This document shows positions 9,171-17,319 of a stretch of DNA of 64,000 nt, one piece after another. The stretch lies in the IMG/VR virus record IMGVR_UViG_3300025030_000051, positions 48,829 to 112,828 of that record; one strand, 5' to 3'. The notes beneath the pieces were generated by a model. It was not told where the DNA came from. It saw nothing but the letters and a program-made list of their open reading frames with translations, and ran no database searches. The translations under genes were made by a program, and so were the position numbers. The stretch comes from a virus. Positions within the stretch are counted from its first letter, which is position 1, and each line of letters opens with the position of its first letter.

Positions 9171-10508
9171 TCATTTATCTTCTCCAATCTTTTTCAATTT
9201 AGGCAAAACTGGTAAGGCAATATTTTCATTAGTACGTTTTAATTTTGGTAATGGAGGAAGTACTATATCTTTAGTTTCTGGAAACTTAGGGACGTTTTCT
9301 TCCATTATTTTATCTAATTCTTCTATCATTTTATCGAATGAAAACTTTTCTTTGTTTTGTTGAGCTAACAACCTTGCGTTTGGTAAAAATGTTTGATATC
9401 TTTTCCAAACGTCTACCATAACTTGAGAGGCAAATGAATAGTTTATATTGAACCAACTAGAGTTTGGTTCAATTACTCCATTCCAAACAGCAGAAGGATG
9501 AACCTGCTTAATTTCACCAGGTAACAATAATACTAATTCTTTCGGCAAAAAATCAACATGTCCAGACCATCCACTGACCATAATAGGCTTTTCGCTTAAA
9601 CTTGCTTCAAGCAGAGGCCTACCAAAGCCCTCTCCTTTTGTAAAGCTAACGTGTATTTTTATCTTAGAATGATTATATAGTCCATTCATATCTTCAGAAG
9701 ACAGATCGCCAAATAATAAATAAATATTTGGCAAATCACCCTTTATATCCTTTTTTATTGCTTCAATTTTTCTAATAGTATCAAGTCTGTCAATATAAGA
9801 AAATGTATTTCCAGTTTTTAATAATAAAGCAGGTTTATTAGGCTTATTTTTAAACGTTTCTAAAAATGTCTTAATCAACATTCCCACATCTTTTCTATCA
9901 GCTCCAAGTCCTCCTTGTAGCCAATGGCCTACAAATAAGAAAACAAAATCTTCTTTTATTTTATTTAATTCGTGCCTAATTTTAGTCTGAATATTTTCAG
10001 TTTTATAAAAAATAGAAGTATCAACACCCTCAAATAAAACATGAATTGGTTTAGTACAACTCAAATTACCAATAACCTGCTTTGTAACATTATCTTGCTG
10101 AGTATATTTTGTATTAACAAAAACGTTCTTAGCAAAAATAGAAGGAACAATATTGAAGTTCATTCTGTTCAGTCCTTCAATCCAAGCTGGGGAACATATT
10201 GTCGTCTCAATACCGGCTGTAATGCCTATATTAAACATTGCTATTTGTTGAAACTCATTTGGAACTGATAGTTGTATAGAAATTTCTGGTTTTTTTGGTA
10301 AATTAGGAGTTGGAATTATTTTAGATATAATTTCATCATCAATGCCCTTTTTTAAAGCAGACCTGGGGAGTGTTCCCCAACGAATAGATAAAATTTTAAT
10401 ATCATATTTATCTATTTTTAAAAGAGAATTAACTATTGATTTAGAATGTTCGCCATAACCTGAACGGGAATCAACAGGACCAATAAACAATAAAGTTGGT
10501 TTACTCAT
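9171..10508 (-). CDS. Glycosyltransferase family 4 (GT-B)
   Basis: SRSGYG, FLFVGHW, RKD, GEGFGRPLLEA (EX7E). Confidence 0.9.
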   Translation of the reverse strand: MSKPTLLFIGPVDSRSGYGEHSKSIVNSLLKIDKYDIKILSIRWGTLPRSALKKGIDDEIISKIIPTPNLPKKPEISIQLSVPNEFQQIAMFNIGITAGIETTICSPAWIEGLNRMNFNIVPSIFAKNVFVNTKYTQQDNVTKQVIGNLSCTKPIHVLFEGVDTSIFYKTENIQTKIRHELNKIKEDFVFLFVGHWLQGGLGADRKDVGMLIKTFLETFKNKPNKPALLLKTGNTFSYIDRLDTIRKIEAIKKDIKGDLPNIYLLFGDLSSEDMNGLYNHSKIKIHVSFTKGEGFGRPLLEASLSEKPIMVSGWSGHVDFLPKELVLLLPGEIKQVHPSAVWNGVIEPNSSWFNINYSFASQVMVDVWKRYQTFLPNARLLAQQNKEKFSFDKMIEELDKIMEENVPKFPETKDIVLPPLPKLKRTNENIALPVLPKLKKIGEDK

Positions 10509-10838: not shown

Positions 10839-12317
10839 TCATATATGTATCAACTCATATCTTTCTCTCGGTTTAAATTCTTCAAAGCACCTTTCCATAT
10901 CCTGAATAAATCTTCTGCACATTTCAGATGCCTCCATACCTACTTCTTTTTTGAGCATAAATTCCCTTCCCAATAAACCGTATTCCTTTCTCTTTTCATA
11001 TCCTAAATTATACAGATATAATAGTCCTTCAGCTGCATCTTCCCATTTTGCCCTATCGTCAAAAATATATGGAGTTGGTGGTGAACCAACTAAACCCCTT
11101 GCTGCTGGGAATAATGGAAAAGCCCACTTACCACATTTTTTGAATCTACCATCATGATTACTACCCCATTTCTTGTCAAACTTAATTGGATTCCCTTCAT
11201 CATCTACAAATCCCATCTGATCTTGAAGTCCACCAGTAACTGTTGCTAAAATAGGAGTTCCACTCATTAATGATTCCGCTGTTGCTAGACCAAACCCTTC
11301 AGCACTTGCTAAGTTTATCGTAACATCAGAAATGTTATATAAATAGTTCAATTGAAACGATGGTAATCTTGCATCATAATAAATAATATCATAATCCTTA
11401 CACAATTCATTACCGACCTCTGGTAAATCTGTTCCGTTAGGATCAACTAATTGAGTATGCATTATCAACACGCATTTTTTTGCATTTTCTTTTGATAATT
11501 GATCACAAAACAATTTAAATGCCAAAATTACATCACCTGGAGATTTTCTTTTAATATTTCTATTATTATATAAAATTATAAAATTATAATCTTTATCACC
11601 AAAAATATCTTTCCTATATTTAATCATCCCTTCGTAATCATTCTTTAATTCCTTAACTCCATTGTTATCAAATTCACGAACAATTCCTTGCTCTAATTCT
11701 GTAATTGGAAAATGGTTTTTTGAATTAATACCGTGTGGGATATAAGTAATTATTCTTTTGTCTGAACCTAAAACATTATTAACAATATTTTCAGTCTGTT
11801 TACTGATACACATTAATAGATCACATCCCTGATAATAGGAACGATTATAAGTTGGATTGGGAACGTTATCCCAAACTGTATAAAAAAACAATGGTATTTT
11901 TTGTCTTATTTCGTGTTCCATATTAAACATCCAAATAAACTGTCGCGGATCTGTATACATCATTACTGCATCAATATTTAATTCTTCAATTAACGAACGA
12001 ATTAAATCTGGATCTCCATAACCATCATTTGGTTGAATGACAACCTTTGCATCTGTTATTCCTAATGTAGCATTTACATCTTGAGAAACATCTATACGTT
12101 TACCTTTATCTGGATGATTTATGGCAGCGCCAATTTGAAAAAAATTAAACCTATGAGCTGTACCCATTACAATTTCTTTTGATACTACACCTACACCTGA
12201 TGATAATCTTAGCTATAGGTCATCTGATAATAGAAGAATATTTTTACGATCTTTTTGTTGAACGTATTCATATTCATTTATTATCAAACGACCTATAGTA
12301 CCTCCATTCTCTATCAT
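10839..12317 (-). CDS. Glycosyltransferase family 4 whose full-length frame contains an internal UAG at codon 35
   Basis: NNRNIKRK, EGFGLATAES (EX7E). The track ORF (start 12167) lacks the first GT-B strand; upstream in-frame ILLLSDDL*LRLSSGVG continues to ATG 12317 with a GGAG RBS. Confidence 0.8.
12210..12298 (-). other. 36-bp mRNA hairpin ending on an in-frame UAG flanked by identical CUA codons (candidate recoding signal)
   Basis: Arms 12263-12298 and 12213-12248 pair at 31/36 positions including 2 G.U; CTA 12216-12218, TAG 12213-12215, CTA 12210-12212. Confidence 0.75.
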
Positions 12318-12465
12318 TTTTTACTCCAATATAAATTGTTATAAACACTTTTTTGATTATCAAAAATCATCGAATAGTTATAACCATTATTTATTACACC
12401 TTATTTTTTAAGTAATAAATTTTTTTCATTTTTATTAAAAGTCCACATTGATTTGACTTCTACAA

Positions 12466-12666
12466 TTAAATCATATTATTTAATGCATCATCTATCAGTT
12501 TTTCCAACATATCATCATAAGTAAAAAAAATATCATGTGGTCCAGTTCCATGTAAGTTAGATATTAATTGACAAAGTCTGATATCATATTGTTTTTCATA
12601 TAATTTTAAAAGTTTTTCAATTAAACGTTTTTTATCTTCTGGATCTCTATAATTTATATATTTCAT
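12466..12666 (-). CDS. Small hypothetical protein (duplicated at 17130-17319)
   Basis: 66-aa ORF, DIRLCQLISNL..DIFFTYDD. Confidence 0.6.
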   Translation of the reverse strand: MKYINYRDPEDKKRLIEKLLKLYEKQYDIRLCQLISNLHGTGPHDIFFTYDDMLEKLIDDALNNMI

Positions 12667-12848
12667 AATAAACTTCCGCTTATTTGTAAATAATTTATTT
12701 TATTAACAATTTTATCCCTAAATTGAGATTCACTTAGAAAAAATTTTATACAAGTATCAACAAAATTTGTCAAATTAATCTTATTATTAAAACAATCAAC
12801 TTTAAATTCTTTGTATTGACTTTCTTCTAAATTTATAGATGTAAGCAA
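12663..12848 (-). CDS. Small ribbon-helix-helix-like DNA-binding protein
   Basis: LTSINL strand then two helices (YKEFKVDC, LTNFVDTCI). Confidence 0.45.
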   Translation of the reverse strand: MLTSINLEESQYKEFKVDCFNNKINLTNFVDTCIKFFLSESQFRDKIVNKINYLQISGSLL

Positions 12849-17129: not shown

Positions 17130-17319
17130 TACATTTAATTCTTCGTCTATCAGTTTTTCCAGCATATCATCATAAGTGAAAAAAATATCATGAGGTCCGG
17201 CCCCGTGTAAATTAAATATTAATTGACAAAGCCTAATATCACATTGTTTTTCATATAATTTTAAAAGTTTTTCAATTAAACGTTTTTTTATCTTCTGGTT
17301 TTCTATTTATGTATTTCAT
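17130..17319 (-). pseudogene. Frameshifted second copy of the 12466..12666 gene
   Basis: Near-identical DNA; A7 instead of A6 after GAT gives an early TGA. Confidence 0.7.

What the first reader, a model, noticed from the sequence alone, without database searches (positions are those of the whole stretch)
12210..12317. Candidate programmed ribosomal stop-hop: CUA-UAG-CUA at the foot of a 36-bp coding hairpin in a glycosyltransferase
Seen: from ATG 12317 (GGAG RBS) the frame reads MIENGGTIGRLIINEYEYVQQKDRKNILLLSDDL*LRLSSGVG and continues into the 442-aa GT4 ORF. The single UAG (codon 35) is flanked by identical CUA codons. Codons 7-35 fold into a hairpin (31/36 paired, first 20 bp unbroken) whose last paired bases are exactly CUA-UAG. 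Two stem substitutions are G.U on the mRNA strand, which suggests selection on RNA structure. Known: T4 gene 60 bypassing uses matched take-off/landing codons, a UAG and 5' structure that refolds behind the ribosome. Inference: a 6-nt hop gives SDDL-RLSSG, the spacing I recall for this GT-B N-terminus, and a 490-aa enzyme; hairpin zipping could push the ribosome forward and tune glycosyltransferase output. Alternatives: a template-switch insertion that killed the gene, UAG readthrough, or an assembly error.
Basis: partly seen in the sequence, partly recalled or inferred. Interest (0 to 1): 0.88.

Follow-up and report, generated by a model that had tools for sequence, protein, structure and literature searches.

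The report
Natural ribosome stop-hop in phage glycosyltransferase
A phage sugar-transferase gene is broken by six extra bases (a stop codon plus a repeat of the preceding leucine codon) right behind a strong RNA hairpin, and ten diverged wild versions of the same break show it is conserved and most likely skipped by the ribosome, a decoding trick so far documented only in engineered genes.

Summary
From ATG 12317 the minus-strand frame runs into the GT4 gene with one in-frame UAG (12215-12213) flanked by CUA codons, at the 3' foot of an 86-nt hairpin (-40 kcal/mol, z -6.5). More than 100 homologues have exactly two codons fewer here.

I first favoured a template-switch mutation that killed the gene. 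Degenerate DNA pattern scans overturned that. Nine further distinct alleles of the same 6-nt gap sit at the same site in GT homologues only 39-65% identical. They use UAG, UGA and UAA. The codon after the stop always mimics the codon before it, including AUU/GUU in a clade whose native residue is Ile. Each allele has an N-terminal leader whose RNA pairs with the Ser-Asp-Asp codons, with compensatory changes in 11 of 19 stem columns. dN/dS downstream is 0.10-0.15.

Best reading, about 0.7: a programmed +6 stop-hop, partly linked to endonuclease-like genes as in T4 mobA/gene 60. No protein data exist.

This scan has noted similar stop-hop cassettes on other DNA. Those notes served as leads only.

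The parts
12324..12327 (-). Shine-Dalgarno-like GGAG, 6 nt upstream of the leader ATG
   Evidence: Read directly from the sequence.
12288..12317 (-). N-terminal leader (codons 1-10, MIENGGTIGR). It is absent from gap-free homologues, whose Met aligns with TTG 12287-12285. It carries the start of the 5' arm.
   Evidence: Alignments A1 and A2. Leaders with the same G-R-L codons occur in gap alleles L109, L111 and L114.
12279..12298 (-). 5' arm of the hairpin (20 nt)
12233..12278 (-). Apical part of the hairpin (codons 14-29), with inner helices of 6, 4 and 2 bp
12213..12232 (-). 3' arm of the hairpin: codons for L-L-S-D-D-L plus the stop
12216..12218 (-). Take-off codon CUA (Leu34)
   Evidence: This position holds the native residue in homologues.
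12213..12215 (-). In-frame UAG, the first half of the 6-nt coding gap
12210..12212 (-). Landing codon CUA, the second half of the 6-nt gap. Decoding would resume at AGA 12209-12207.
   Evidence: Landing codons mimic take-off codons in all 10 alleles.
10839..12209 (-). Remainder of the GT4 (GT-B) gene, including the stop codon. It is intact and keeps the E-x7-E motif (E340, E348).
   Evidence: Pfam PF00534, invariant columns, AlphaFold model pLDDT 86.5.
12466..12666 (-). 66-aa DUF1040-like ORF. Together with about 150 nt of spacer it is inserted between the RHH-like gene and the GT, relative to gap-free relatives.
   Evidence: Synteny comparison, atlas hit, paralogue in the window.
12663..12848 (-). 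RHH-like small gene that abuts the GT start in gap-free relatives
9171..10508 (-). Second GT4-like gene of the conserved pair, at the head of an intact glycan island

Best explanation
The gene is read by a programmed +6 ribosomal stop-hop.

Translation starts at ATG 12317 in a short leader that is not part of the ancestral protein. When CUA34 is in the P site and UAG in the A site, peptidyl-tRNA-Leu lets go of CUA and re-pairs with the identical CUA 6 nt downstream, and decoding resumes at AGA. Nine nucleotides therefore specify one Leu, and the 490-aa product is collinear with gap-free homologues (SDD-L-RL).

The leader supplies the 5' arm of a hairpin whose 3' arm is the S-D-D-L coding sequence directly behind the take-off codon. 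As this arm leaves the ribosome it can zip up with the waiting 5' arm and favour forward movement. This step is inferred, by analogy with the 5' stem-loop of T4 gene 60.

Leader, hairpin and gap form a cassette found in scattered members of this GT family, sometimes next to an endonuclease-like gene. Its origin and benefit are probably those of the T4 mobA/gene 60 element: a selfish insert that alters a conserved DNA target without altering the protein. This is also inferred.

What is shown: the anatomy, its conservation, covariation in the stem, and purifying selection downstream. What is inferred: the hop itself, its efficiency, the role of the hairpin, and the link to homing.
For: 1. Exact 6-nt excess. 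All 30 aligned homologues and 92 held gap-free loci lack it.

2. The interrupted allele is reproducible. It is on 14-20 contigs from several sources, and no uninterrupted version more than 68% identical exists among 5.8 billion clusters.

3. Ten distinct alleles share the site: the window, L109/L110, L111, L112/L116/L118/L120/L122, L113, L114/L115, L117, L119, L121 and L123. They come from at least 12 metagenome datasets. The L112-type post-gap ORF alone is on 169 contigs.

4. UAG, UGA and UAA are all used. In the window's genome TAG ends 13 long ORFs. On the other gap-bearing contigs the gap's stop type also ends other long ORFs; the one exception is L115, whose allele-mate L114 has one. No suppressor tRNA lies in the 112.8 kb held.

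5. Take-off and landing codons covary: CUA/CUA, CUG/CUA (twice), CUU/CUU, CUU/CUC (twice), CUU/CUG, UUG/UUG (twice). With a pattern that left both codons free, AUU/GUU turned up in a clade whose gap-free members read CDD-I-RM.

6. Every gap allele has the hairpin, with z between -1.6 and -8.3. None of 35 gap-free relatives has it: mean -11.3 kcal/mol, z about 0.

7. Covariation in the stem. 169 of 190 cells are paired and 11 of 19 columns show changes on both sides. Examples are GAC/GTC versus GAT/ATC, and TCA versus AGT with matching partners. Mismatches are wobble pairs only.

8. dN/dS downstream of the gap between gap alleles is 0.10-0.15, with dS above 1.5. L111 and L113 are open for 474 and 457 codons.

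9. Gap alleles fall in at least 6 places in the family tree. A gap-free, leader-free relative is 85% identical to L111's gene.

10. The gap lies in the beta1-alpha1 loop. The 442-aa ORF from ATG 12167 would lack beta1 and most of alpha1.

11. The glycan island downstream is intact.

12. Synthetic stop-hops with matched codons flanking a stop are established (PMC5009743). Pairing of exiting mRNA as a forward driver is proposed for gene 60 (bioRxiv 10.1101/2024.12.09.627546).
Against: There are no protein, ribosome-profiling or reporter data for any allele, and the efficiency is unknown.

The first two search patterns required Leu-type codons on both sides and an Arg-type codon after, so part of the regularity is ascertainment. 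Only the last scan left these codons free, and it added one allele.

Only 6-nt gaps could be searched, so no frame-changing gap is available to exclude readthrough formally.

In all alleles except the window, an AUG lies two codons after the landing codon, so termination-reinitiation is conceivable there.

The window's own hairpin folds nearly as well on the antisense strand. Its outermost base pairs could be a template-switch product.

The hairpin abuts the take-off codon, whereas the gene 60 5' stem-loop lies 9 nt upstream, so its 3' arm is inside the ribosome at take-off.

No nuclease gene lies next to the window's cassette.

Confidence: 0.72

Rival explanations
1. Stop-codon readthrough. 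The stop is decoded as a sense codon by a near-cognate or suppressor tRNA, giving a 492-aa enzyme with two extra residues (L-x-L) in the beta1-alpha1 loop.
For: The gap is in frame, so readthrough restores the ORF. The extra residues would lie in a loop of the model, where pLDDT drops to 62. UAG followed by C is a comparatively weak terminator (own knowledge). Only 6-nt gaps were found, so no frame-changing allele excludes it.
Against: All three stops occur, including UAA in three alleles. No suppressor tRNA lies in the 112.8 kb held, and TAG ends 13 long ORFs in this genome. Each allele's stop type is also a terminator on its contig or on a contig carrying the same allele. Readthrough does not explain why the codon after the stop copies the codon before it, even when that codon is Ile. 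It also does not explain a covarying hairpin 5' of the stop; known readthrough stimulators lie 3' (own knowledge).
Confidence: 0.12
2. Two-piece gene. The 25-43-aa leader ORF (containing beta1) ends at the stop, and the enzyme is made separately by reinitiation just downstream. The pieces either assemble, or the enzyme works without beta1.
For: In 9 of 10 alleles an AUG lies two codons after the landing codon. This family tolerates a genuine split between its N and C domains, with a separate SD and ATG.
Against: That AUG is the native Met of the L-R-M motif in gap-free homologues. The window has TTA there, and its first in-frame ATG is 15 codons downstream of the landing codon, which removes the Gly-rich loop and most of alpha1. 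Beta1 is the central strand of the N-domain Rossmann fold. The model does not explain matched take-off and landing codons.
Confidence: 0.07
3. Dead or dying gene. A quasi-palindrome or template-switch mutation inserted six templated bases, creating both the stop and the longer stem, and the matched codons are a by-product.
For: The inserted hexamer is the exact reverse complement of the hexamer that adjoins the 5' arm; the chance is about 3e-4 from base composition (my arithmetic). The hairpin is almost as stable on the antisense strand. Template switching is known to create hairpins (PMC5453318, PMC8794818). The window's branch is about 1.2-fold longer root-to-tip than its sisters, and it deviates at 5 of 99 highly conserved columns. 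This was my leading reading up.
Against: The same gap design is kept in ten alleles that are 39-65% identical, with dS above 1.5 and dN/dS of 0.10-0.15 downstream. With the 6 nt removed, the window still folds at -35.4, z -4.6, so the insertion did not make the hairpin. There is no second lesion in 457 codons of a 25% GC gene, and the rest of the glycan island is intact.
Confidence: 0.04
4. Assembly or amplification artefact, for example an inverted-repeat chimera.
For: Long inverted repeats are a known source of chimeric reads (own knowledge). Reads could not be inspected.
Against: The exact 34-aa and 442-aa ORFs recur on 20 and 14 contigs from JGI, Logan, ENA, MetaClust and NCBI. Homologous gaps occur in at least 17 other contigs.
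Confidence: 0.01

Closest known systems
Synthetic stop-hops in E. coli (Weiss, Dunn, Atkins and Gesteland 1987, as reviewed in PMC5009743; also cited in bioRxiv 10.1101/2024.12.09.627546)
   Same: Matched or near-matched codons flank a stop codon, and nine nucleotides specify one amino acid. The gap is in frame. The product differs from readthrough by two residues.
   Different: Those were engineered constructs that worked at low level without stimulatory signals, and the review states that no natural occurrence is known. Here the site is natural, conserved in ten alleles, and always preceded by a covarying hairpin and a dedicated leader.
Phage T4 gene 60 translational bypass within the MobA homing-endonuclease element (bioRxiv 10.1101/2022.08.31.505936; PMC5462505)
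   Same: Take-off and landing codons match, and a stop follows directly after take-off. A 5' RNA structure forms from exiting mRNA. The element encodes an N-terminal extension. The cassette sits in a conserved region of a phage gene. Close relatives differ in presence or absence of the element. The endonuclease is often lost while the gap stays.
   Different: The gap is 6 nt rather than 50 nt and is in frame. There is no take-off stem-loop inside the gap, no mini-SD and no identified nascent-peptide signal. The hairpin abuts the take-off codon instead of lying 9 nt upstream. The gene is different (GT4), and the endonuclease-like genes are different (NUMOD3-bearing or TnsA-like, not MobA). There is no sequence homology.
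Streptomyces phage Hau3 terminase, two 10-nt inserts after UUA (PMC10732093)
   Same: A short coding gap in a phage gene whose flanks are adjacent in gap-free relatives. Secondary structure lies around the site. Bypassing is supported by mass spectrometry in E. coli for one site.
   Different: The Hau3 gaps change frame and are triggered by a rare sense codon (UUA) whose tRNA is regulated. Only three genes are known to carry them. Here the trigger is a stop codon and the gap is in frame.
Mitochondrial byp elements of Magnusiomyces capitatus (as summarised in PMC5009743)
   Same: Short mobile inserts within coding sequences that are skipped during translation.
   Different: They are 27-55 nt GC-rich elements in a mitochondrial code with an unused A-site codon. 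They are not stop-plus-repeat hexamers and are not found in phages.
Programmed stop-codon readthrough
   Same: A single in-frame stop within a gene that must be passed to make the full product.
   Different: Readthrough needs no matched codon after the stop. It usually depends on one stop type and 3' context or structure, and it adds residues. Here the stop type varies and the stimulatory element is 5'.

Membership tests
Stop-hop (short in-frame translational bypass) | Identical or near-cognate codons on both sides of a stop codon | tested here: met
   The window has CUA-UAG-CUA. All 10 alleles have take-off and landing codons that share at least 2 of 3 bases, including AUU/GUU found with a pattern that left both codons free.
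Stop-hop (short in-frame translational bypass) | Skipping the gap gives a product collinear with uninterrupted homologues | tested here: met
   Homologues read SDD-(L/M/I)-R with two codons fewer. A gap-free relative 85% identical to L111's gene reads SDDLRM.
Stop-hop (short in-frame translational bypass) | The gap is conserved under selection rather than being a one-off lesion | tested here: met
   There are ten alleles, 39-65% identical. dN/dS downstream is 0.10-0.15 with dS above 1.5.
Stop-hop (short in-frame translational bypass) | A protein product lacking the gap-encoded residues | not testable with these tools
   No proteomic or reporter data exist. Mass spectrometry for NILLLSDDLR is needed.
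T4 gene 60 / MobA-type bypass cassette | Take-off stem-loop within the coding gap (A-site stem-loop) | tested here: not met
   The gap is only 6 nt, so no structure can lie inside it.
T4 gene 60 / MobA-type bypass cassette | 5' RNA structure that forms behind the ribosome | tested here: met
   A hairpin is present in 10 of 10 alleles with compensatory changes. The geometry differs: it abuts the take-off codon rather than lying 9 nt upstream.
T4 gene 60 / MobA-type bypass cassette | Carried by a homing-endonuclease element with an element-encoded N-terminal extension | tested here: inconclusive
   An N-terminal leader is present in all gap alleles and absent in gap-free kin. A NUMOD3 ORF lies directly upstream in L111 and a TnsA-like remnant in L113. 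No nuclease gene is seen in the window, L114 or L117. Homing was not tested.
T4 gene 60 / MobA-type bypass cassette | Nascent-peptide signal that promotes take-off | not tested
   The nascent chain is the native K-I-L-L-L-S-D-D-L segment. No similarity to the gene 60 signal was sought.
Stop-codon reassignment or suppressor-dependent decoding | The stop type is not used as a terminator, and/or a cognate suppressor tRNA is present | tested here: not met
   TAG ends 13 of 97 long ORFs in this genome. The only tRNA in the 112.8 kb held is tRNA-Met. On the other contigs the gap's stop type also ends long ORFs, except L115, whose allele-mate L114 has one.
Template-switch (quasi-palindrome) mutation | The novel bases are the reverse complement of bases next to the other arm, and are absent in relatives | tested here: met
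   The hexamer at 12218-12213 equals the reverse complement of 12298-12293 and is absent in relatives. This can explain how the window's stem was lengthened. It does not explain the conserved gap.
Pseudogene | Several lesions or relaxed constraint | tested here: not met
   There is a single stop. The window has 5 deviations at 99 conserved columns, within the range of homologues (maximum 8). Its branch length is not an outlier. Selection acts between gap alleles.
GT4 / GT-B glycosyltransferase | Glycos_transf_1 domain, E-x7-E motif and two-Rossmann fold | tested here: met
   PF00534 scores 35.5 bits against a cut-off of 26.4. E340 and E348 are invariant. The AlphaFold model has pTM 0.88. The closest solved chain is PBCV-1 B736L.

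The most novel reading that the evidence does not exclude
This is one member of a natural family of 6-nt in-frame stop-hops, a decoding event that reviews list only for synthetic constructs. It would be driven by a zipper hairpin made of a cassette-encoded leader and the coding sequence directly behind the take-off codon. The leader-hairpin-gap unit would spread between phage glycosyltransferase genes as a selfish, endonuclease-associated cassette that changes the DNA target but not the protein.
Probability: 0.65. Interest if true: 0.85.

Novelty: new variant of a known kind. Interest (0 to 1): 0.8.

Why it matters
Translational bypassing is one of the rarest departures from standard decoding. 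T4 gene 60 stood alone for decades, and short stop-hops have been documented only in engineered E. coli genes; a 2016 review states that no natural occurrence is known (PMC5009743).

A conserved, minimal 6-nt version with a simple covarying hairpin offers three things:
- a small, easily mutated system for asking what makes a ribosome let go and land;
- evidence that selfish elements can hide insertions in conserved motifs at almost no coding cost;
- a warning for annotation. Gene callers and GenBank records truncate these genes (the 442-aa, 448-aa and 158-aa calls) or treat them as broken, although one such allele is on 169 contigs.

Tried and rejected

Searches that returned nothing useful:
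- Scans for near-identical relatives of the window's protein found none.
- A search for other short N-terminal ORFs found only the window's own.
- No Rfam family and no terminator matched.
- No nuclease domain was found in the ORFs around the window's GT. The inserted 66-aa ORF is DUF1040-like.

Readings I dropped:
- Until my leading reading was a lineage-specific template-switch lesion, either a pseudogene or weakly rescued. It rested on the apparent uniqueness of the hairpin, the antisense fold and the templated hexamer. The pattern scans overturned it.
- I considered and dropped amber reassignment.
- I dropped a longer hop between the two TTA-TCA pairs, because it would delete the conserved DDLRL.
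- I dropped RNA-level excision of the hairpin, because it would remove conserved coding sequence.
- A phase switch by slippage between the CTA repeats is not testable without reads.

Analyses that did not help:
- An ungapped self-versus-cross arm-pairing matrix was uninformative, because it picked wrong partners for L119 and L121. I relied on the fold-based tables instead.
- A genome-wide count of long inverted repeats gave 2 against 0.33 expected, a weak signal.
Full report
**1. What the window is**

The window is the last 64 kb of a 112.8-kb linear IMG/VR virus record with about 25% GC and nearly all genes on the minus strand. The region belongs to a large phage with DnaE, ThyX-like genes, a dCMP deaminase and a PD-(D/E)XK nuclease.

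The gene in question is the first of two adjacent GT4 glycosyltransferases that head a glycan island. The same order (nuclease, small RHH-like gene, GT4, GT4, further GTs) is seen in Flavobacterium phage immuto and Microcystis phage Mel-JY01. The island downstream is intact in the window: two GT2 genes, a hexapeptide transferase and a Gmd-like dehydratase.

**2. The observation**

- On the minus strand, ATG 12317 is preceded by GGAG. It opens a frame that runs into the GT4 ORF with one interruption: TAG at 12215-12213, between two CTA codons.
- Nucleotides 12298-12213 fold into a hairpin with an unbroken 20-bp outer stem containing two G.U pairs, plus inner helices. MFE is -40.3 kcal/mol and z is -6.5.
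- The structure is not a consequence of the amino-acid sequence. Synonymous resampling gives -17.9 +/- 3.2. The stem uses rare codons.
- Thirty aligned homologues all have two codons fewer at this point.
- The AlphaFold model places the stop in the beta1-alpha1 loop of the N-terminal Rossmann domain. The 442-aa ORF from ATG 12167 would lack beta1 and most of alpha1.
- The exact 34-aa and 442-aa ORFs are on record on 20 and 14 contigs from five sources. No uninterrupted allele closer than 68% identity exists.
- TAG ends 13 of 97 long ORFs. The only tRNA in the record is tRNA-Met.

**3. First reading, later overturned**

The closest relatives whose DNA I could fetch (L002, L096, L104) lack the six bases and start at an ATG that aligns with the window's TTG 12287. 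None of 35 gap-free relatives has a comparable fold. The antisense strand folds almost as well. The extra hexamer is the reverse complement of the hexamer next to the 5' arm.

This pointed to a template-switch mutation (PMC5453318, PMC8794818) in a single lineage.

Two results did not fit. With the six bases removed, the sequence still folds at -35.4, z -4.6 against synonymous resampling. The window's protein also shows no clear sign of relaxed constraint.

**4. The decisive result**

Notes from this scan on other DNA described stop-plus-repeated-codon gaps behind hairpins in other phage genes. I took that as a lead and searched the collections with degenerate DNA patterns for the motif around the site with a stop inserted. 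A last pattern left the codons on both sides of the stop free.

Apart from the window's own record, these scans returned 17 contigs from at least 12 datasets. Together with the window they carry ten distinct alleles:

| Allele | Take-off / stop / landing |
|---|---|
| window | CUA-UAG-CUA |
| L109, L110 | CUU-UAG-CUC |
| L111 | CUU-UGA-CUU |
| L112, L116, L118, L120, L122 | CUU-UGA-CUC |
| L113 | CUU-UGA-CUG |
| L114, L115 | CUG-UAG-CUA |
| L117 | CUG-UAA-CUA |
| L119 | UUG-UAA-UUG |
| L121 | UUG-UAA-UUG |
| L123 | AUU-UGA-GUU |

L123 belongs to a clade whose gap-free members read CDD-I-RM. There the take-off codon is the native Ile codon, and the codon after the stop mimics it rather than being Leu.

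The gap's stop type also ends other long ORFs on these contigs. The single exception is L115, whose allele-mate L114 has one. The L112-type post-gap ORF is on 169 contigs.

**5. Hairpin and leader are part of the unit**

- Each gap allele begins with a leader that gap-free kin lack. This leader supplies the 5' arm of a hairpin whose 3' arm is the L-L-S-D-D coding sequence.
- In most alleles the stem ends at the first base of the take-off codon. In the window it runs on through the stop. Loops range from 9 to about 70 nt.
- Indexed by distance from the stop, 169 of 190 positions are paired. Eleven of 19 columns show changes on both sides. For example, the third base of each Asp codon (C or U) goes with G or A in the leader, and the Ser codon TCA or AGT goes with matching partners.
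- The departures from Watson-Crick pairing inside the stems are G.U or U.G, never C.A. This points to RNA of the sense strand. These counts rest on each allele's own predicted fold, so the fraction paired is partly by construction. The two-sided changes are not.

**6. Selection and distribution**

- Between gap alleles, the 150 codons after the gap have dN/dS of 0.10-0.15 with synonymous sites saturated. This includes L119 versus L121, which share the same gap.
- L111 and L113 are open for 474 and 457 codons after the gap. The other alleles are genuine two-ORF splits between the N and C domains, with their own SD and ATG, as in Mel-JY01.
- Gap alleles fall in at least six places in a tree with 108 gap-free homologues, and are 39-65% identical to each other.
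- A gap-free, leader-free protein is 85% identical to L111's enzyme.
- Directly upstream of the leader, L111 has a 218-aa ORF with a NUMOD3 motif and L113 a TnsA-like nuclease remnant. The window has a DUF1040-like 66-aa ORF plus spacer inserted there. L114 and L117 have nothing extra.
- This pattern resembles the MobA element of T4-like phages, which brings an N-terminal extension and the bypass gap and often loses its endonuclease (bioRxiv 10.1101/2022.08.31.505936).

**7. Mechanism**

The best-supported reading is a +6 stop-hop. With the take-off codon in the P site and a stop in the A site, peptidyl-tRNA re-pairs with the look-alike codon 6 nt downstream and decoding resumes at the Arg codon. 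The product is collinear with gap-free enzymes.

At take-off, the 3' arm of the hairpin lies in the mRNA channel behind the P site. As it emerges it can pair with the free 5' arm, which would favour forward movement. Pairing of exiting mRNA is proposed as the forward driver in gene 60, where the 5' stem-loop lies 9 nt upstream of take-off.

This role of the hairpin, the efficiency, and any regulatory use are inferences.

The rivals fare as follows:
- Readthrough remains possible because all gaps found are in frame. It does not explain three stop types, the mimic codon or the 5' hairpin.
- Reinitiation at the AUG two codons after the landing codon is possible in nine alleles but not in the window, which has TTA there.
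- A dead gene is excluded by conservation.

**8. Comparison with what is known**

Synthetic stop-hops with matched codons around a stop are established, and the 2016 review says no natural case is known. A full-text search for the term found nothing newer.

The nearest natural systems are gene 60 (a 50-nt gap with several extra signals), the 10-nt gaps of phage Hau3 terminase and the mitochondrial byp elements.

This case works like a stop-hop and is organised like the MobA/gene 60 cassette. It is not a member of that family: there is no structure within the gap, the gene and nuclease are different, and there is no homology.

**9. Limits**

- No protein data exist.
- Reads were not inspected.
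- The first patterns forced Leu-type and Arg-type codons.
- Only 6-nt gaps were searched.
- Contigs of the window's own phage could not be fetched.
- The earlier notes of this scan on other DNA are unchecked and were used only as a lead.

Noticed in passing
window 12466-12666 and 17133-17319 (minus strand): The 66-aa DUF1040/YihD-like ORF upstream of the GT has a 190-nt paralogue (88% identical) just upstream of the dCMP deaminase gene. The second copy has no obvious ATG start. Weaker fragments lie elsewhere in the genome.
   Followed up: partly
L107 (Microcystis phage Mel-JY01) 2450-3941; also L110, L112, L114, L117, L119: Many members of this GT family are natural two-ORF splits between the N and C domains of the GT-B fold. 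The second ORF has its own SD and ATG just before the x-S-Y-V-P-H-G motif. This is reminiscent of split GT-B enzymes such as Alg13/Alg14.
   Followed up: partly
G000:C1:7779-7854 (outside the window): A second long inverted repeat (18-nt arms, 2 mismatches, 40-nt loop, GC-containing) lies inside an uninterrupted minus-strand ORF. The genome has 2 such repeats against 0.33 expected from shuffles.
   Followed up: partly
L111:5503-6159 (minus strand): A 218-aa Cys-rich ORF with a NUMOD3 motif sits between the RHH-like gene and the gap-bearing GT. No catalytic nuclease domain was recognised by Pfam.
   Followed up: partly
L113 (JACKQG010015547.1) and the L112-type contigs: GenBank records annotate the post-gap ORFs as 'glycosyltransferase [Pelagibacterales bacterium]' (448 aa, N-terminally truncated) and 'hypothetical protein [Candidatus Woesearchaeota archaeon]' (158 aa). 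These look like phage contigs binned into cellular MAGs with truncated gene models.
   Followed up: no
window 12139-12141 and 11935-11937 (codons 59 and 127 of the GT): The window's enzyme has Phe at two positions where 115 and 119 of 119 homologues have Trp (F59 and F127). The changes are conservative but unusual.
   Followed up: no
window 12317-12311 with 12199-12193 (approximate): In the predicted fold the leader AUG region pairs with a downstream TTATCAT stretch just after the landing codon. This forms a weak outer helix around the main hairpin and could mask the start codon.
   Followed up: no
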